IMG/VR virus record: IMGVR_UViG_3300037420_001924
Span: 1-49,864 of that record
Direction: 5' to 3' (one strand)
DNA length: 49,864 nucleotides
Source: a virus
Lineage: Duplodnaviria > Caudoviricetes
Shown here: one piece after another, positions 16,269 through 27,107 of the stretch
How the letters are laid out: every line of letters begins with the position of its first letter
How positions within the stretch are numbered: the stretch's first letter is position 1
The notes under the pieces: model-generated
What the model was told of the DNA's origin: nothing
The model's database searches: none
Seen by the model: only the letters and a program-made list of their open reading frames with translations
Translations under genes and position numbers: made by a program

Positions 16269-16574
16269 GTGGAAAAACCCTATTTTATGGATACTGAAAT
16301 CAAAAAAGAAGAAGACCTCATCTTAGGCGATGAACAGGCAGAAGAAATCCTGGTGGACGACCCCTTTGAAGAGTACGACCTGCACGCAGAAATCACCTCC
16401 GCCTGCAATGCGCTGGGCGCTATTACGGACATGGACGAAGCCCTGTTTTCCAAAGAAAAGGCTAGAATGATCCGGGTTATCCGCAGAAAGTCACTGGAAA
16501 TCATTTACGAGAACATCGGCCATATCCATGCCCAGATATTTGAAAGAAAAGAAGAGGAGGAAGAAGAGGAGTAA
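16269..16574 (+). CDS. Acidic hypothetical protein
   Basis: ORF track; Glu/Asp-rich with a poly-E tail. Confidence 0.6.
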   Translation: MEKPYFMDTEIKKEEDLILGDEQAEEILVDDPFEEYDLHAEITSACNALGAITDMDEALFSKEKARMIRVIRRKSLEIIYENIGHIHAQIFERKEEEEEEE

Positions 16575-16603
16575 CAATTTTCTTTTTTCATATGCAGTTG
16601 GTT

Positions 16604-16634
16604 AGCCCAGGTGTGTCTACACCGGGCTTTTTTT
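16604..16634 (+). terminator. Intrinsic terminator-like hairpin (same type as the 26.1-26.8 kb units)
   Basis: AGCCC-A-GGTGT-gtct-ACACC-GGGCT followed by a T run. Confidence 0.75.
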
Positions 16635-16852
16635 ACCCCCTCAGTTGCGCCCTCACTTACCCCCTCATTTTTTACTGTATCCGGTAGTGTAACCTTTAGT
16701 GTAACAAAGAGGTTTAGGGTATAATAAACTGAGCCGGTTTATTATATACTTCTTTGGTTTATCTACTGTTAGGTTTATCCGTAAAAAGGTAACAGAGAAG
16801 TTGTATAAGGTCCACTGTAGTGAACATCCCTAAAGGTGAAATGTTTACTGTA

Positions 16853-16921
16853 ATGAACTTAGCTGAAGAATTACTATTAAGCCCCGGTTGCCACGCTCGC
16901 TTGTACTGCAACAATTCTATT
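16853..16921 (-). repeat. ~70-bp dispersed element, copy 3 (inverted), left of the Ro60 operon
   Basis: Reverse complement AATAGAATTGTTGCAGTACAAGCGAGCGTGGCAACCGGGGCTTAATAGTAATTCTTCAGCTAAGTTCA. Confidence 0.8.
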
Positions 16922-16961
16922 CGGCATTTTGTAAATTGTAAATCTTGTTGCAAAAATAAAT

Positions 16962-17003
16962 TTTGAACGTGCGTATGTTGTGTGTATATTTGATGTATGT
17001 TTG
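16962..17003 (+). promoter_or_regulatory. Bacteroidota sigma-A promoter with tandem operator repeats
   Basis: TTTG (16962-16965), 19-nt spacer, TATATTTG (16985-16992); GTATRTTK repeated at 16973, 16984 and 16995 (11-bp period). Confidence 0.75.
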
Positions 17004-17009
17004 TACCTA

Positions 17010-17156
17010 ATGAGGCGTTTTAATTTTTTCATAGAACAAGAGTGGATAGATCGTATTAGGCGGGATATGAGAAAACATGGTTTTACCAACGTTTCCAGTT
17101 TTATTCGGTATATTATAATACAGTTCTTTAAAAATATTGACAGTAGCGATAAGTGA
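17010..17156 (+). CDS. 48-aa ribbon-helix-helix (CopG/Arc-like) regulator, absent from the ORF track
   Basis: MRRFNFFIEQEWIDRIRRDMRKHGFTNVSSFIRYIIIQFFKNIDSSDK: alternating beta strand, helix, G-x-x-x-x-S-x-x-IR second helix. Confidence 0.7.
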   Translation: MRRFNFFIEQEWIDRIRRDMRKHGFTNVSSFIRYIIIQFFKNIDSSDK

Positions 17157-17262
17157 GTTACTTCGTGTCGTCGGTTCGAATCCGATCGTTAGCAATAACG
17201 TAGCTCAATTGGTAGAGCAAAAGGCCCGCAAGGGTTATACTTACTTAGATTATCTCTGTCAA
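17137..17262 (+). ncRNA. yrlA: YrlA-type Y RNA (tRNA mimic)
   Basis: Terminal helix TTGACAG/CTGTCAA plus TAAGTGAGT/ACTTACTTA; inside are a T-arm (GGTTCGAATCC), a GCAA-capped acceptor-like stem CGTTA/TAACG and then a D-arm (TAGCTCAATTGGTAGAGC), the T-before-D order of YrlA; adjacent to a Ro60 gene. Confidence 0.88.
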
Positions 17263-17267
17263 CATTC

Positions 17268-17335
17268 TTGCAAGTAGTGAGAAGTGCGTTACTTCAATTG
17301 GTATGAAACACACGTACTTCGGTTTTCTCTTGCAA
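17268..17335 (+). ncRNA. Short Y RNA 2
   Basis: TTGCAAG-TAGTGA-GAAGTGCGT-TACTTC...ACGTACTTC-GGTTTTCT-CTTGCAA; same geometry as unit 1 with compensatory changes. Confidence 0.8.
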
Positions 17336-17339
17336 ACTT

Positions 17340-17410
17340 ATTAGGATAGCGAAGGTTGAGTTACTTCATCTGCAAATTGAAACAACACTTAGCCTGTTTT
17401 TCTTCCTAAT
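17340..17410 (+). ncRNA. Short Y RNA 3
   Basis: ATTAGGA-TAGCGA-AGGTTGAGT-TACTTC...ACTTAGCCT-GTTTTTCT-TCCTAAT; same geometry. Confidence 0.8.
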
Positions 17411-17418
17411 GTTTTTGT

Positions 17419-17450
17419 AAGGGTTGCCATCGTGCAGCCCTTTTTATTTT
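17419..17450 (+). terminator. Terminator/attenuator between the Y RNAs and rsr
   Basis: AAGGGTTGC-catcgt-GCAGCCCTT followed by TTTATTTT. Confidence 0.7.
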
Positions 17451-17469
17451 GTCTTAAAACCAACTCAAT

Positions 17470-18918
17470 ATGTCAAGATTCAACACTACAACAACAGGAG
17501 CGAAAACGGTCAATTTAGCAGGGGGTGAAGCATACGGCCAAAACCCGGAACTGGAATTGGTTTCTATTCTTTTAACATCCTTTGCCAACGATCAGTTTTA
17601 CCGATCGGCAAATGATACGTTTGAACGCCTGAAGCAATTGGTTGGACTGTGTAATAAAGAATTCGTGGCAAAGGCGGCGGTTTATGCCCGGACGCAGTTT
17701 GGTATGCGGTCTATTACCCATGTTGTAGCCTCTGAACTGGCAAAGCATATCGGCGGCGAAAAATGGGCTAAAGACTTTTATTCCGCTATTGTTTACCGGC
17801 CGGATGATATGCTGGAAATCCTTTCCTACCATACACAAAATAATGGCAAGATTCCCAACTCCATCAAGAAGGGGTTTGCCAGGGCATTTGACCGGTTCTC
17901 TAAATATGATCTGGCTAAATACCGGGGCGAAAACAAGGGTTTTAAATTGGTAGATGTAGTGAACTTGGTTCACCCCACGCCAACCGAAAACAACCGGGAA
18001 GCGATTGATGCGCTGGTAAAGGGAGAGCTGAAATCCTTTGATACATGGGAATCGGAACTGACAAGGGCGGGGCAGGCGGCAGCGAATGAAGAGGAAAGGG
18101 CGGAATTTAAAAAAGAGGTTTGGGTAAAGCTGGTACGCGAAAAGAAAATCGGCTATTTCGCCCTGCTTCGGAATTTACGAAATATCATTGAGCAAGCGCC
18201 CGAAGTCGTGGCAGAGGCTTTGGAAACCCTCACCAATGAAGCTATTATTAAAAAGTCGCTGGTGCTGCCTTTCCGGTTCTTAACGGCCTTTGAGGAAATC
18301 CGGAAGCTAAACGATGGCAAAGTAATTCGGGATGTTCTTATGGCATTAAATAAAGCCGTGGATATTGCCGTTAATAATGTTCCCAAGTTCGATGGTGAAA
18401 CCCTTGTGGTGTTGGACGTCTCCGGTTCTATGCGCGAAATGGGCAAGGGAACCAAATCGCCTCATATCATCGGGGCTTTATTTTCTGCAGTATTGGTAAA
18501 GGCGAACAACTGCGATCTTATGACCTTTGATAACCATGCAAGGTATGTAAACATAAATCCATTTGATTCAACCATTACCATATCGAATTCCATTCCATTT
18601 ACAGGTGGTGGTACGGATTTTCACTCTATTTTCAGAACCGCTAATAAGAAGTACGACCGGATTATTATTTTATCCGATATGCAGGGATGGATAGGGTATC
18701 ATTCCCCTTCCCATGTATTCAATGTGTACAAACAAAGCACCGGGGCCAACCCGTTTGTTTATTCCTTTGATTTGAACTCCTACGGCTCCCTGCAATTCCC
18801 TGAACAGAACGTTTTTGCAATAGCCGGTTTCAGTGAGAAGGTGTTTGATATCATGAAACTAATGGAAACCGATAAGCGGGCTTTAATCAATGAGATTAAA
18901 AAGATTTCATTTAGCTAG
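17470..18918 (+). CDS. rsr: Ro60/Rsr RNA-binding protein (TROVE + vWA)
   Basis: TROVE motifs NLAGGEAY, DLAKY, LVHP, TWE and ALLRNLRN; vWA MIDAS DVSGSM...GGTD...SD. Confidence 0.95.
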   Translation: MSRFNTTTTGAKTVNLAGGEAYGQNPELELVSILLTSFANDQFYRSANDTFERLKQLVGLCNKEFVAKAAVYARTQFGMRSITHVVASELAKHIGGEKWAKDFYSAIVYRPDDMLEILSYHTQNNGKIPNSIKKGFARAFDRFSKYDLAKYRGENKGFKLVDVVNLVHPTPTENNREAIDALVKGELKSFDTWESELTRAGQAAANEEERAEFKKEVWVKLVREKKIGYFALLRNLRNIIEQAPEVVAEALETLTNEAIIKKSLVLPFRFLTAFEEIRKLNDGKVIRDVLMALNKAVDIAVNNVPKFDGETLVVLDVSGSMREMGKGTKSPHIIGALFSAVLVKANNCDLMTFDNHARYVNINPFDSTITISNSIPFTGGGTDFHSIFRTANKKYDRIIILSDMQGWIGYHSPSHVFNVYKQSTGANPFVYSFDLNSYGSLQFPEQNVFAIAGFSEKVFDIMKLMETDKRALINEIKKISFS

Positions 18919-19048
18919 CTTCGCCCTTGGTTTTTCATAGGATATTGGACCCTGAAAAAAGACCGCTAACAAAAATAGCTGCTTTTTTATTTAAAAACCC
19001 CAACGTTAACAAAAGGCTGAGCCTGTTGCAAATTATTCCTTAAAAAAG

Positions 19049-19080
19049 AAGCGGCAAACCCTTACGGACAGCCGCTTTTG
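19049..19080 (+). terminator. Terminator-like hairpin downstream of rsr
   Basis: AAGCGGC...GCCGCTT followed by TTG. Confidence 0.45.
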
Positions 19081-19093
19081 TCGTAAATTAGAG

Positions 19094-19729
19094 TTGACTA
19101 AAAACCAATTTACGATGAGCAATTTAAACAATTTTCCCCAACGAAAAAGACGTTCGCTGGAAGAGCGGCTTCAAGACCTAAAAGCTAAGATTCAAAGGCG
19201 CAAAGAAAGGGAACAAAGAAAAGCGCCGCCTGTGGTCAAAAACATAGAAGACAGAATATTAAACAATATTAAGAGGATTAAAGAAACCGGCTGTTGGGAA
19301 TGGCAAAGGGCTTTAAATGCAAGTGGATACGGTCAAATCTTTTACAAAGGTAAAAACTGGGTAGCCCATAGGCTTTCTTACCTGCTGTTCAAAGGAGAAC
19401 TGGATGAAACCCTATTTGTCTGTCATAAGTGCGACAACCGCAAATGCGTAAACCCTGACCATCTTTTTTTAGGAACAGCAAAAGAGAATATGGATGATTG
19501 CTTTAGAAAGGGAAGGCATACCAACATATTCACCAAAGGACACACGCCTGTTAACGCCAAATTAGATAAAGACACAGCTGCTAAGATTATCCTTTACATT
19601 TGGGATCACCCCCATGAACGGGTTTCAAAAATTGCTGATCGGTTCAATGTCTCCGTCTCGGTTGTTAAAGATATAAAGCGGGGCCGGTCTTATAATAATC
19701 TTATAGAGGAAGTAGAACCGATCAGCTGA
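19094..19729 (+). CDS. HNH endonuclease (HNH_3-like) with C-terminal HTH
   Basis: CWEW..GYG..AHRLSY..VCHKCDNRKCVNPDHLFLGT..EN; IADRFNVS..VKDIKRGRSY. The real start may be ATG 19115. Confidence 0.9.
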   Translation: MTKNQFTMSNLNNFPQRKRRSLEERLQDLKAKIQRRKEREQRKAPPVVKNIEDRILNNIKRIKETGCWEWQRALNASGYGQIFYKGKNWVAHRLSYLLFKGELDETLFVCHKCDNRKCVNPDHLFLGTAKENMDDCFRKGRHTNIFTKGHTPVNAKLDKDTAAKIILYIWDHPHERVSKIADRFNVSVSVVKDIKRGRSYNNLIEEVEPIS

Positions 19730-19935
19730 CAAAATCTTTCCAATTTTTTTTAGTGGCCTGAAAGTCAATACTGTAGCTGAAAAAAAATAGTGTGGTGGTC
19801 TCGTCGCCTCCACTTTCAAACCCACGCCAGCCGTGGGTTTTCTTATTTTAAAGGGGAAATGGGGCAAACTCTACAGGGGCAGAAAGGGCATATTTTGACA
19901 AAAAAGGCTATCTTTCTTTCCAAAATCTTTCCAAT
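19730..19935 (+). mobile_element. Putative attP: tmRNA-3'-like core, replacement terminator and arm repeats
   Basis: CTCGTCGCCTCCACT (19800-19814), hairpin AAACCCACG/CGTGGGTTT, and exact 15-bp repeat CAAAATCTTTCCAAT at 19730 and 19921; directly upstream of the integrase. Confidence 0.65.
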
Positions 19936-19947
19936 AATCTTGACAAA

Positions 19948-21138
19948 ATGGCTACTGCAACCGCGATTCTAAACGAAAAATACAAAAGCAAAGACGGCAC
20001 GTACCCCATTGTGATTCGCTTAATAGACGGTCGCCGCCAAAAGCTCCACCCCATAAAATACAAGATCCCAAAACACTACTGGCAGGCCGGGCAGGTGAGG
20101 GACATCCACCCCGAAGCGGACATTATCAATTCCGTAATCGACGAAGAACTCCTGCGGGCCAAACGCTATTTTAGGGACTGCCGCCTGCAAAATATTCACA
20201 TTGATTTGGAGCTGGTCTTTCAGGCGGTGAAAAGCCACTCCTTTACCGAATACCTTCGCCACAGGGCTCGCCAACACAAAGAAGCGGGACAGGTGGAAAT
20301 GCACTTTAAGGCCAACCGCTACCAAAAGGAATTTGTAAAATGTTTTGGCCGGGAGGTGTATTTTTCCGAACTCACCCAGGATGCGCTCCGCACCTTTGAC
20401 GCCTGGCTGATGCGCGAGGACCCGGAGCAAAAGAAAAAGGCCAATAGCGCCAACACAAGGGCCAAAAAATACGAGTTTTTGGGCAAGTATTACAATAATG
20501 CCGTTAGAGAAGGCAAGGCGATGGACCCCAACCCTTTTTACGAGTTTAAAAAGACGGTGAAAACCACGCCCGTAAAAAAACAAAAGCTCACCCGCGAGGA
20601 AATCTCCTCAATCGAGAACCTACCCTTAAAGGACGGCAAGGTACGGCTGGCCCGCGACCTGTTCCTCTTTTCCTATTACTGTAAAGGCGCTCGGTTTGAA
20701 ACCTGCCTACTGATGAAAAAAGACGCCCTTCAGAACGGGCGGCTATACTTTCAAACCAACAAGGGCAAAAAACACCTCTCGGTGGAACTGCACCCCAAAC
20801 TAAAAGCTATTATCGAGCATTATATTGATAACCCCACCGATACCATCTTTGGCCGGGTTATGTCGGATTTGGGAAATCAGAAGCGAAGCAAAGTAGGCTC
20901 TGAAAACTTTATGGTCAACCGGGAATTAAAGGTGGTCGCGCAGTTAGCAGAGGTTCCTATCGCCCTTTCCATGCACCACGCCCGCCATACCCTGGCCTTT
21001 CACTTAAAAAAGAACAAGGCCGATATTCACGCCATCAAACAGGCGTTGGGGCACAGTCGCACCCAAACTACAGAGATTTACCTGACCGATTTGGACGATG
21101 AGGCGATTGATCCGGTGATGCGTAGTTTGTACCAGTAA
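19948..21138 (+). CDS. int: Tyrosine integrase (Bacteroidota Arm-DNA-bind/SAM/catalytic type)
   Basis: KDGTYPIVIRL arm domain; catalytic R (GARF), K (NKG), HHARH, LGH and Y (TEIY). Confidence 0.95.
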   Translation: MATATAILNEKYKSKDGTYPIVIRLIDGRRQKLHPIKYKIPKHYWQAGQVRDIHPEADIINSVIDEELLRAKRYFRDCRLQNIHIDLELVFQAVKSHSFTEYLRHRARQHKEAGQVEMHFKANRYQKEFVKCFGREVYFSELTQDALRTFDAWLMREDPEQKKKANSANTRAKKYEFLGKYYNNAVREGKAMDPNPFYEFKKTVKTTPVKKQKLTREEISSIENLPLKDGKVRLARDLFLFSYYCKGARFETCLLMKKDALQNGRLYFQTNKGKKHLSVELHPKLKAIIEHYIDNPTDTIFGRVMSDLGNQKRSKVGSENFMVNRELKVVAQLAEVPIALSMHHARHTLAFHLKKNKADIHAIKQALGHSRTQTTEIYLTDLDDEAIDPVMRSLYQ

Positions 21139-21263: not shown

Positions 21264-21956
21264 CTACAGAACAACCTTTTTAAAACTGTTGTTATCGTCT
21301 GCTAATAAATAGATACTTGCACTTTTAAGGAACTGCGTATCAGTGATCTTATTATCGACCAAATTTTTAAGGTTTTTTAGAGAAGTTGAAAGTATCATAC
21401 TCTCTGTATTGTAATTATAATTCTGTTCCCCTTCGGTGAAATCTTTACTTAGATATAGAACATGTACACTGATTGTGGAAGGGAGGGCCCCTTCAAAATT
21501 GTTATACAGAGATTGTAGGAAATTAAATACGAAGGCATCTAATACAGTAGAGGCCCTCTTCTTTGTATTATACTGGAGCGTATTAAACACCTTAGAATAT
21601 AATAAACCTGAAAAATACCACCCATTTGCTCCCAGATCATTAGTAAAGTCACTTATAAAACTGCATTCGGTCTGCTTAACCGGGCGGTATTTAACGTTAT
21701 CGTACAGGTTTTCAAATTTGTCATACTTTGAAGTTATAAAAGAGGCCTTGCTATTTTTTAAGCAATCCTTTATTGTAAGATCAGATTGGGTAAGATCAGA
21801 CAGGCCTTTTGTAAGGATTGATGTTTCGAACAATAGTTGTAACCTCTGTGCATTAAGCAGTACGTGTTGTATGCCAGGCGCCTTTTTAGATGCTGACGAT
21901 TTTGTTTGTCCAAAAGATAGGCCTGGAATGAACATTAATAGGAAAATGTATCTCAT
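21264..21956 (-). CDS. Exported protein with signal peptide (lysogenic conversion candidate)
   Basis: MRYIFLLMFIPGLSFG-Q signal peptide; AT-rich; co-oriented with the repressor. Confidence 0.65.
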   Translation of the reverse strand: MRYIFLLMFIPGLSFGQTKSSASKKAPGIQHVLLNAQRLQLLFETSILTKGLSDLTQSDLTIKDCLKNSKASFITSKYDKFENLYDNVKYRPVKQTECSFISDFTNDLGANGWYFSGLLYSKVFNTLQYNTKKRASTVLDAFVFNFLQSLYNNFEGALPSTISVHVLYLSKDFTEGEQNYNYNTESMILSTSLKNLKNLVDNKITDTQFLKSASIYLLADDNNSFKKVVL

Positions 21957-22929: not shown

Positions 22930-22975
22930 TGTAAACTTTACATATTGACATTTGTAAACTTTACACTTAGCTTTG
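22930..22975 (+). promoter_or_regulatory. Lytic promoter with two palindromic operators
   Basis: TGTAAACTTTACA at 22930-22942 and 22953-22965; TTG (22945), 20-nt spacer, TAGCTTTG (22968-22975). Confidence 0.8.
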
Positions 22976-25811: not shown

Positions 25812-26084
25812 ATGGGTAATTGTAACGGTGATCGTGCTGTTTATCTGGATGCCGGAGGCCAAGCCCCAAAGGAAAAAGCGATACGTGAGAAGGAACTCCT
25901 GTTGCTCTATGTACTTAGTCAAACCGATCCACAAACCCTATTCGGAGCCTACGTCCAGGGAGCCCTTAAAGACGGAAAATTTGAATCCTTAGTAGGGGAA
26001 CTAAAGGACCAGGCGCGGGATGCACATCAGGGATTAGCAAGGGTGTTGGGTGAAGTAGTGGTAAGGGTTATAAACGAATTATAA
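25812..26084 (+). CDS. Hypothetical helical protein, overlapped by an alternative-frame TM ORF at 25807-25992
   Basis: ORF track. Confidence 0.5.
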   Translation: MGNCNGDRAVYLDAGGQAPKEKAIREKELLLLYVLSQTDPQTLFGAYVQGALKDGKFESLVGELKDQARDAHQGLARVLGEVVVRVINEL

Positions 26085-26089
26085 AGATA

Positions 26090-26803
26090 GTGGCCTCAGG
26101 GGCCACGGTAGTTTTGGTTGACGCGTCCTGTTTCCACAGGAGGCTTTTAAAAACGAATTAGCTCTTTCTCATAAATGATGGTTTTGGTTTACCGGGTGGG
26201 TTTCCACTCACCCGTTTTTTAAACCCTTACCAGTGAAAACGAATTGTTGAAAAACCAAAGGTCACCATCCTTAACCCCCTTGGAAATTATTGGACGTATG
26301 AATCATTGATAATAGGAGATGGATTAAAGACGGTTTTTCATAGGGTAAATAGCAACGGGGTAGTTATTCATAGCTGGCCCCTTTCATTAAACAATTAGTT
26401 CTTTTCATATAGCATAATGCAATCGTTAGAGACGGCCTGTTGATCGCAGCGGGCCTTTTAAACCGAAGTTCTTTGAATTAAAATAATTGTGTTGATAAAC
26501 AAAGGCGACCATAGCCAAAGGATAGTAGCCTCAATAAAAGTGAGGGTGGTGGATAATGAAACTCGAATCCTTTATCAACACATAATATTCCGCCCATGCA
26601 ACACTCTGAGGCCAACCTGAAAAGGGGAACAATGCGGAGTGGCCACCGCCTCTACTTGAAAGTTCAATTATTGAAAACGGTTTTGGTATAGGCTCTTTAA
26701 TTGAAAGGCAGGGGCGGTTTTAAACTTATTAAATGCGCTTGGTTTAATTCTTAGGCCGAGTCAGGTTTCAACGGGGCTTGTTCTCTACTCGCCCCTCATT
26801 TTT
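26090..26803 (+). ncRNA. Cluster of hairpin units / candidate sRNA array
   Basis: No ORF of 60 aa or more over about 750 bp; at least five GC hairpins with T-rich tails, several preceded by TTTYTCATA or TTTTGGTT, plus larger stem structures. Confidence 0.55.
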
Positions 26804-26840
26804 AAAAACCAGATCTCTTAACCAACTAAATAAATAAATC

Positions 26841-27107
26841 ATGGTACAGTTGAAACAAATTGCCGAAACCGTAAAAGCCATCGTTGGCCATGAGTACCTG
26901 TACTTTGATTCAGCCATACAGGTGAAACTATCTCCGCACTCTCATCCGGTGACTTTGTGGGGTGTATGTGTCTCTCCCTTAGAAAAGGTTTATGTCATGG
27001 ACAGTGACGAGCAGTGGCACGAGGTAAAGGCCCATAAAAAGACCATCATCGCTTCCCTTTTTCAAAGGGTTCAATTAATCGCTTTACATCAATTAAAAAC
27101 CGCTTAA
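26841..27107 (+). CDS. Hypothetical protein
   Basis: ORF track; A-rich start region. Confidence 0.6.
   Translation: MVQLKQIAETVKAIVGHEYLYFDSAIQVKLSPHSHPVTLWGVCVSPLEKVYVMDSDEQWHEVKAHKKTIIASLFQRVQLIALHQLKTA

What the first reader, a model, noticed from the sequence alone, without database searches (positions are those of the whole stretch)
26107..26460. Array of sRNA-like units antisense to Bacteroidota translation starts
Seen: four units, each a pyrimidine-rich leader, a GC hairpin (loops TTCC, TTCC, TTCA, ATCG) and a T tail, at 26107-26148, 26155-26220, 26329-26385 and 26393-26460. Reverse complements of three leaders read AAACCAAAACCATCATTT-ATG-AGA-AAG, GCTATTTACCCT-ATG-AAA-AAC and GCATTATGCTAT-ATG-AAA-AGA; the first unit has only the AACCAAAACT part. 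These resemble A-rich Bacteroidota start regions plus the first codons (MRK, MKN, MKR), yet the minus-strand frames close after 4, 5 and 14 codons. Established: Bacteroidota largely lack Shine-Dalgarno sites and exported proteins often begin MK/MR. Inference: a polycistronic array of antisense sRNAs silencing host mRNAs such as outer-membrane receptors or defence genes.
Basis: partly seen in the sequence, partly recalled or inferred. Interest (0 to 1): 0.8.

Follow-up and report, generated by a model that had tools for sequence, protein, structure and literature searches.

The report
Phage cluster of borrowed small RNAs
A soil phage that likely infects Chitinophagaceae bacteria carries, in a gene-free gap among its early genes, four back-to-back copies of three small-RNA-like elements that also occur in those bacteria's chromosomes; three of the four are complementary to start-codon regions and would likely damp translation of host exported proteins, but no transcript or target has been shown.

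Summary
Observation confirmed. The window is a temperate tailed phage, likely of Chitinophagaceae, and the units lie in a 756-nt gap among its early genes. Each unit resembles one of three Chitinophagaceae chromosomal families absent from Rfam: U1/U2 family A (28 of 41 genomes), U4 family B (104 of 151), U3 family C (64 of 151). All share the FopS design: an unpaired UUUYUCAUA seed, then a terminator hairpin (covariation shown for A). The cluster varies between strains; a close relative has one unit, without the anti-AUG. Array seeds keep the anti-AUG core but differ from host seeds (13-14/20), while three dispersed phage copies stay host-like (18-19/20). No unit has its own promoter; boxA-like sites and an enclosing stem suggest processing from the early transcript. 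Target tests on stand-in hosts were weak or negative, and own-gene targeting was not supported. Best reading (0.55): FopS-like translational repressors. Main rival (0.25): a terminator stack. Not a FopS member (RF04319 negative). This scan noted similar phage arrays and Chitinophagaceae families before on other DNA.

The parts
26107..26148 (+). U1: 3' part of a family-A element (AGTTTTGGTT, GT-TTCC-AC hairpin, T tail); no anti-AUG core
   Evidence: host-only model R1, model positions 24-65, 35.3 bits, E 2.7e-7; fold
26157..26220 (+). U2: full family-A element; anti-AUG core TTTCTCATAA; strongest terminator
   Evidence: R1 52.6 bits, E 9.2e-12; terminator scan; a related contig carries the host-type seed here
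26331..26386 (+). U3: diverged family-C element; 5' GGTTTTTCATAGG shares 11 nt with the FopS-10 5' end; weak terminator
   Evidence: R3 full length, 22 bits, E 0.0011; sequence-only HMM E 0.071; alignment; FopS-10 primer
26399..26460 (+). U4: family-B element with a 3-nt insertion in the seed and an AUCG loop
   Evidence: sequence-only HMM E 3.3e-6; CM R2 only E 0.19; alignment
26059..26069 (+). 5' arm of an 11-bp long-range stem that encloses hairpin 26090-26106, U1 and U2; possible processing stem (inferred)
   Evidence: fold of 26050-26240, z -3.84, 0 of 200 shuffles as stable; inverted repeat I2
26222..26232 (+). 3' arm of the same long-range stem
26090..26106 (+). GC hairpin just after the stop of ORF 25812-26084
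26161..26698 (+). four boxA-like GYTCTTT sites (26161, 26398, 26468, 26692); two overlap the 5' ends of U2 and U4
   Evidence: 4 of the 15 + strand sites lie in 756 nt, post-hoc P 6e-5; GTTCTTT also flanks a host 16S gene
26764..26801 (+). fifth, seedless hairpin of family-C type at the end of the gap
   Evidence: R3 E 0.016; the equivalent in relative G403 matches family C at E 3.6e-4
16576..16633 (+). dispersed family-A copy, 3' of ORF 16269-16574; seed 19/20 host-like
   Evidence: R1 38.1 bits
18929..18991 (+). dispersed family-C seed (19/20 host-like) with a different hairpin, just after the Ro60/TROVE gene
   Evidence: R3 34.7 bits
39741..39802 (+). dispersed family-B copy (18/20 host-like) upstream of ORF 39819
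   Evidence: R2 E 0.0023; HMM E 9.5e-6
25812..26084 (+). upstream flanking early ORF (90 aa, no family)
26841..27107 (+). downstream flanking early ORF (88 aa, no family above cut-off)
22968..22975 (+). TAGCTTTG, Bacteroidota -7-type box before the first rightward early ORF (23009); candidate promoter of the transcript that would carry the cluster
   Evidence: motif scan; the promoter consensus is recalled and the role inferred

Best explanation
The four units are phage-borne copies of three Chitinophagaceae chromosomal small-RNA-like families, likely transcribed as part of the phage's early message and likely cut into 40-65-nt RNAs, of which three would pair through an unpaired UUUYUCAUA seed with AUG-ARA start regions and so would damp translation of many host mRNAs, most likely those of exported MK/MR-starting proteins. 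Shown: similarity of each unit to a host family, + strand hairpin polarity and covariation in family A, absence of internal promoters, strain-to-strain gain and loss, and retention of the anti-AUG core in U2-U4 while the adjoining seed bases changed. Inferred: transcription from the early promoter with boxA-assisted read-through; release by termination at each hairpin plus nucleolytic 5' trimming, as for the prophage sRNA DicF; repression by occluding the start region, as for FopS; and a benefit such as lowering envelope or receptor protein synthesis in early infection or induction. U1 is probably a seedless remnant that acts only as a terminator.
For: Models built from host chromosomal copies alone find the units: R1 gives U2 E 9e-12 and U1 E 3e-7; the family-B HMM gives U4 E 3e-6; R3 gives U3 E 0.001. 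The families are widespread: A in 28 of 41 genomes, up to 8 matches; B in 104 of 151; C in 64 of 151; reversed-pattern controls hit 1 and 0 genomes. In family A, 7 of 9 stem pairs show double-sided change, 98.8% of cells pair, and G-U pairs fix the + strand, while the unpaired leader is nearly invariant. Family C has a -7-like box at a fixed -12 offset in 15 of 26 copies (relaxed pattern; strict 3 of 26), as expected of stand-alone sRNA genes. FopS has the same layout and 5' seed and blocks susC translation (PMC11697453). RRM proteins occur in 3 of 3 stand-in hosts. Seeds are mostly unpaired in released units (0.57-0.75) and more buried for U3/U4 in the precursor (0.32-0.35). U2's top-decile start regions are enriched in signal-peptide-like proteins, 22 of 47 against 125 of 448, P 0.003.
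Against: No expression data were obtained. Target tests on 448 stand-in host genes are weak. Among the 90 strongest duplexes the AUG is covered 28, 25 and 37 times for U2, U3, U4, against 28.6, 21.2 and 32.6 for an average coding position. In-register scores beat flank-shuffled seeds only for U3 (1/200; U2 25/200, U4 17/200). Signal-peptide enrichment is not significant for U3 (P 0.09) or U4 (P 0.2), and U2's is one of five seeds tested. The orthologous gap in relative L402 holds one unit that lacks CAT, as does the copy in prophage G078, so the anti-AUG is dispensable in some phages. Seed divergence could be decay. U2's match to R1 is partly circular because family A was collected with a U2-derived pattern; the 12-nt GGTTTTGGTTTA and the stem were not in that pattern. 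None of 14 other phage loci with such a unit has a second unit in the flanks fetched, 300-700 nt.
Confidence: 0.55

Rival explanations
1. The cluster is a stack of intrinsic terminators picked up from host-type 3' elements. It attenuates early transcription into the recombination and replication genes until antitermination at boxA-like sites sets in; the seeds are passengers that are decaying.
For: Position between early genes and the recombination/replication block. Five hairpin-plus-U units and four boxA-like sites. U1 and the 26764 hairpin lack seeds; relatives lack CAT. Array seeds are only 13-14/20 host-like. Dispersed copies sit at gene 3' ends like ordinary terminators. Target enrichment is weak.
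Against: All three full units keep the 9-13-nt anti-AUG core intact while changes cluster just 3' of it. U3 is a poor terminator yet keeps its seed. Host leaders are far more conserved than their stems, which a terminator does not need.
Confidence: 0.25
2. The RNAs are made but act as decoys: they soak up the host RRM (RbpB-like) protein or other partners of the host families and so unbalance the host's own sRNA circuit, without needing exact pairing.
For: RbpB binds FopS in its unpaired 5' part and counteracts it (PMC11697453). Stand-in hosts carry 2-8 RRM matches and the phage record none. Copies of all three families in one spot would suit titration.
Against: A decoy should stay close to the host sequence, but the array copies are the most diverged. 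Binding was not tested.
Confidence: 0.1
3. The RNAs regulate the phage's own genes, for example the signal-peptide gene 21264-21956 between integrase and repressor.
For: U2 pairs across that gene's AUG at -21.2 kcal/mol, and it is U2's best in-register phage start. Earlier AI notes report own-gene targets in other phages.
Against: Across nine phage sequences the best own-genome start ranked first for 2 of 8 correctly extracted seeds, with about 0.9 expected; 3 of 11 seeds were mis-extracted and set aside. With automatic gene calls another gene (43616) pairs better with U2, and other phages' starts reach -22.8.
Confidence: 0.07
4. The ATGs are real minus-strand minigenes or remnants of gene starts.
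For: The start contexts look like Bacteroidota starts.
Against: In host copies the reverse frames range from 4 to 102 codons with no shared peptide. G-U pairs and U tails mark the + strand. No such unit lies on the - strand.
Confidence: 0.03

Closest known systems
FopS / GibS sRNAs of Bacteroides thetaiotaomicron (Rfam RF04319, RF04182; PMC11697453: abstract, passages, section 8 and rows of the oligonucleotide supplement read)
   Same: About 60-70 nt; unpaired 5' seed starting G-UUUUUCAUAG (11 nt shared by U3 and FopS-10); Rho-independent hairpin; multicopy; intergenic or 3'-UTR-derived; seed complementary to start regions; one FopS copy was noted in a phage.
   Different: No match to RF04319 at the array. 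Different family of bacteria. FopS are dispersed genes with their own promoters and near-identical seeds; here three families are stacked without promoters inside a phage early operon and the seeds differ. Targets and RRM binding are unshown here.
DicF of the Qin prophage (PMC12197685, section 3 and passages read; its processing by RNase III/E is recalled)
   Same: A ~53-nt terminator-like untranslated product of a prophage operon that pairs with host mRNA and blocks translation.
   Different: Unrelated sequence; single RNA per prophage; Hfq-dependent; specific targets (ftsZ, xylR, pykA) rather than a generic anti-AUG core.
3'-UTR-derived envelope sRNAs such as CpxQ and MicL (recalled, not read)
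   Same: Host families A and B lie 3' of a small heat-shock-like gene and a small lipoprotein gene, suggesting mRNA-plus-sRNA stress units.
   Different: No sequence relation; Enterobacteriaceae, Hfq-dependent; not phage-borne clusters.
boxA antitermination of untranslated arrays (rrn, CRISPR; PMC13753749, passages read)
   Same: boxA-like words (E. coli UGCUCUUUAACA) cluster in this untranslated stretch and near a host 16S gene.
   Different: NusB binding untested; no CRISPR repeats or spacers; two of the four sites overlap pyrimidine-rich seeds.

Membership tests
FopS (RF04319) | Scores above the Rfam gathering threshold (56 bits) | tested here: not met
   No match at the array at E up to 10 or in the family search; the model rings over cut-off only in the B. 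thetaiotaomicron control.
FopS (RF04319) | [quoted passage not shown] | tested here: met
   Folds of the units; units are 42-66 nt; U3's tail is weak.
FopS (RF04319) | R1-type seed GUGUUUUUCAUAGUAUUAG | tested here: inconclusive
   U3 shares 11 nt with the FopS-10 5' primer; U2 and U4 share only the UUUYUCAUA core.
FopS (RF04319) | Own sigma-A promoter (or 3'-UTR origin) | tested here: not met
   No -7 box within 45 nt upstream of U1-U4; the only TAnnTTTG in the gap lies inside U1.
FopS (RF04319) | Binds RbpB and represses susC translation | not testable with these tools
   RRM proteins are present in three stand-in hosts; SusC-like genes rank among the best partners of host seeds A and B (SusC label recalled from sequence).
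Chitinophagaceae family A (defined here) | Significant match to a model built from chromosomal copies only | tested here: met
   U2 E 9e-12; U1 (3' part) E 3e-7; selection pattern partly circular for U2.
Chitinophagaceae family B (defined here) | Significant match to a model built from chromosomal copies only | tested here: met
   U4: sequence HMM E 3e-6; the CM, built on a poorly aligned stem, gave E 0.19.
Chitinophagaceae family C (defined here) | Significant match to a model built from chromosomal copies only | tested here: inconclusive
   U3: CM E 0.0011 with rough calibration, sequence HMM E 0.071. The family was found from 18925-18949, not from U3.
GUCCY-hairpin, Flavo-1, Bacteroides-2 motifs (PMC2864571) | Consensus sequence and structure of those motifs | tested here: not met
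   Supplement alignments seen differ; no Rfam hit.

The most novel reading that the evidence does not exclude
The phage builds a multiplexed translation-silencing cassette by capturing three different host sRNA families, keeping the anti-AUG core and terminator as a scaffold and rewriting the adjoining seed bases to aim at new host mRNAs (receptors, envelope or defence proteins). The units are released from a boxA-protected early transcript, and the cassette grows and shrinks between strains like a guide array without a dedicated effector protein.
Probability: 0.2. Interest if true: 0.8.

Novelty: new variant of a known kind. Interest (0 to 1): 0.5.

Why it matters
Bacteroidota lack Shine-Dalgarno initiation (PMC6847099, abstract), so a short anti-AUG-ARA seed can reach many mRNAs for exported proteins. 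FopS showed this in gut Bacteroides. This locus suggests soil phages take such RNAs from their hosts, stack them in the early operon and vary the seeds, which would be RNA-level host takeover or receptor masking without a protein. It also defines three Chitinophagaceae RNA families with no Rfam entry, testable in culturable Niabella, Niastella or Flavihumibacter. The interest is limited by the missing host, the lack of expression data, weak target statistics and earlier similar notes in this scan.

Tried and rejected
Rfam and ARAGORN on the window: nothing. RF04319: no hit on the array. Sequencing runs: no RNA holder listed, which says nothing on expression. U3's own 19-nt seed in host genomes: 18 of 151, with the reversed control in 20, so chance. 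Pairing with 16S rRNA: longest complement 6-9 nt; 23S not tested. Own-phage targets: not supported. The U4 hairpin scan of metagenomes gave 6 loci, all unrelated GC-rich coding or terminator matches. Host identification: integrase search found one related prophage in 401 genomes; a DNA search with 16500-19990 found no clear attachment site. Niabella gene calls were left out of the target tests because start picking was noisy. The phage half timed out. The filter missed TTTCTCAT forms and was redone. The Hsp20 label of host neighbours was not confirmed by Pfam. Literature searches listed no paper on these Chitinophagaceae families or on such a phage cluster; subscription journals are mostly outside the library, and FopS supplementary figures (alignment, phage copy) could not be seen.

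Full report
Setting. The window is a whole 49,864-nt virus record. PHROGs place a tape measure and tail block, endolysin, integrase (19948-21138), excisionase, NinB/NinG, primase-helicase, terminase, portal and capsid: a temperate tailed phage. The units lie in a 756-nt stretch without long ORFs (26085-26840), between small early ORFs and the recombination/replication block. Near-identical DNA is held by soil and rhizosphere metagenome runs, 9 of 11 listed with half or more of the sampled words. A related prophage (integrase 43-46%, tape measure 35%, capsid 50%) lies in 1 of 401 genomes drawn from the family of Niabella, which is Chitinophagaceae. The host family is therefore inferred, not shown.

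Observation. Sequence, loops, reverse complements and the 4-, 5- and 14-codon minus frames are as described. A post-hoc unit rule finds three units in the gap, one more on the + strand and none on the - strand; 998 of 1000 shuffles give none. An independent contig spans the region without a difference. U3's terminator is weak and U1 has no CAT.

Fifty had an uninterrupted stem of 6 bp or more, and all 50 are titled Bacteroidota, mostly Chitinophagaceae. They share a nearly invariant leader TTTCTCATAAGCAGTTRGTTTTGGT before a variable stem. I aligned 45 copies: 40 of the 50 plus 5 with an interrupted stem. Seven of 9 pairs covary, 98.8% of cells pair, slid controls reach at most 57%, and G-U pairs fix the strand. 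The model finds 28 of 41 family genomes, up to 8 matches each. It finds U2 (E 9e-12), U1's 3' part (E 3e-7) and a further copy at 16576. In all 5 genomes examined one copy lies just after a small heat-shock-like gene, and in 4 another follows a release-factor-like gene (labels recalled from the sequences).

Families B and C. Family B, TTTCATATRGCAAGCAATCGTT plus hairpin, occurs in 104 of 151 genomes with a control of 1. It follows a 57-79-aa lipoprotein-like ORF in 13 of 25 loci read. U4 matches it at E 3e-6 by sequence HMM but only E 0.19 by a CM with a poorly aligned stem; host copy L445 has almost U4's stem. Family C, GGTTTTTCATAGGATATTGG plus hairpin, was found through the phage's 18925-18949. 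It occurs in 64 of 151 genomes with a control of 0, and 15 of 26 copies have a -7-like box at the same offset. U3 matches it end to end at E 0.001 (sequence-only E 0.07). The phage thus holds one host-like copy of each family elsewhere (seeds 19, 19 and 18 of 20) and four diverged copies in the gap (U2-U4: 14, 13 and 13 of 20, ungapped), all three keeping the anti-AUG core.

Variation among phages. Of 119 viral loci from a pattern scan, 16 have the seed-plus-stem unit; 2 are this phage. The other 14 carry varied seeds on the same hairpin, and none shows a second unit in its 300-700-nt flanks. The close relative L402 has the orthologous gap without U1 and U2 and with one unit that joins U3's start to U4's body and lacks CAT. 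Contigs in soil runs show the same U1/U2-less form, a version of U2 with the host-type seed and a changed stem base (one contig, depth 5.1, laid at 80% likeness), and a tRNA-like start after U4's hairpin. The copy in prophage G078 also lacks CAT. The cluster is a recent, strain-variable pile-up.

Expression route (inferred). No -7 box precedes any unit; the nearest upstream + strand box is at 22968, before the first early ORF. Four of the 15 + strand GYTCTTT words fall in the gap (post-hoc P 6e-5), and GTTCTTT recurs around a host 16S gene. boxA protects untranslated rrn and CRISPR RNA from Rho (PMC13753749, passages). An 11-bp stem encloses U1-U2 (z -3.84). Seeds are more open in released units than in the precursor. 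This fits processing from the early transcript, as for DicF (PMC12197685), and equally fits a terminator stack.

Targets. With no host, I used 448 genes called in two stand-in genomes; Niabella calls were dropped as noisy. For: start-versus-coding preference beats dinucleotide-shuffled seeds for U2-U4 (0 of 20 shuffles each). In-register pairing is higher at starts than at internal ATGs and higher for signal-peptide-like proteins (P below 1e-8), largely because these begin MK/MR. U2's top decile is enriched in such proteins (22 of 47, P 0.003). Against: absolute duplex energies at starts are no better than in coding regions. Only U3 beats flank-shuffled seeds. Strongest sites are not enriched at the AUG for the phage seeds, whereas host seeds A and B show 30 against 18 and 31 against 21. 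Own-gene targeting is not supported, although U2 pairs with the start of the signal-peptide gene 21264-21956 at -21.2 kcal/mol. rRNA (16S) is not a partner.

Comparison. FopS RNAs are 65-70 nt, have an unpaired 5' seed and a terminator, bind RbpB and block susC translation at the start codon; one copy was seen in a phage (PMC11697453). The FopS-10 5' primer shares GTTTTTCATAG with U3. The array does not score against RF04319 and has no promoters, so it works like FopS at best and is not filed as FopS. GUCCY-hairpin and Flavo-1 differ. My literature searches listed no description of these families or clusters. Earlier unchecked AI notes of this scan describe similar phage arrays and Chitinophagaceae families on other DNA; none was listed for this genome.

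Verdict. A real, + strand, host-type RNA cluster. Most likely it yields three FopS-like translational repressors and one remnant (0.55). A terminator stack (0.25), decoy (0.1), own-gene control (0.07) and minigenes (0.03) remain. New variant of a known kind; interest 0.5.

Noticed in passing
window 17470-18918 and 17120-17460: Ro60/TROVE-vWA gene preceded by an untranslated stretch with tRNA-like words and a boxA-like site at 17123; not called by ARAGORN or Rfam. Possibly a Y-RNA-like partner or decayed tRNAs.
   Followed up: no
window 18919-19033: Family-C seed with its own hairpin, kept at 91% in relative L402 just upstream of the integrase there. Could be a 3' element of the Ro60 gene or part of an attachment site inside a host sRNA gene.
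   Followed up: partly
window 16853-16930: About 80% similar to a repeat found in many of 401 Chitinophagaceae genomes.
   Followed up: no
window 21264-21956 (-): Signal-peptide protein of no known family between integrase and repressor; a similar slot holds another signal-peptide gene in L008. Its start region scores weakly against model R1 (E 0.65).
   Followed up: partly
L402, about 40-480 nt after the U4-like hairpin: Long untranslated, hairpin-rich stretch after a boxA-like word, in place of window 26480-26700; no Rfam match at gathering level. Candidate further ncRNA.
   Followed up: partly
window 26488-26582: 12-bp perfect inverted repeat enclosing smaller hairpins; the 26462-26845 fold as a whole is not unusual (z -0.85).
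   Followed up: partly
window 26072, 26151, 26236, 26389: A short AAACGAATT-like word recurs at the end of ORF 25812-26084 and between units, perhaps an insertion scar or processing signal.
   Followed up: no
L378 (G078): A secreted-protein gene whose start region is almost the exact complement of the family-A seed (-31 kcal/mol): a candidate host target.
   Followed up: partly
host genomes G030:C41, G049:C6, G031:C495: Family-B copies repeat at about 400-nt spacing, probably tandem small genes each ending in the element.
   Followed up: no
L486, L488: Weak FopS/GibS-like matches (32-35 bits) in Niastella and Niabella with yet another seed, TTTTCATAGGATAAGG: a possible fourth family.
   Followed up: no
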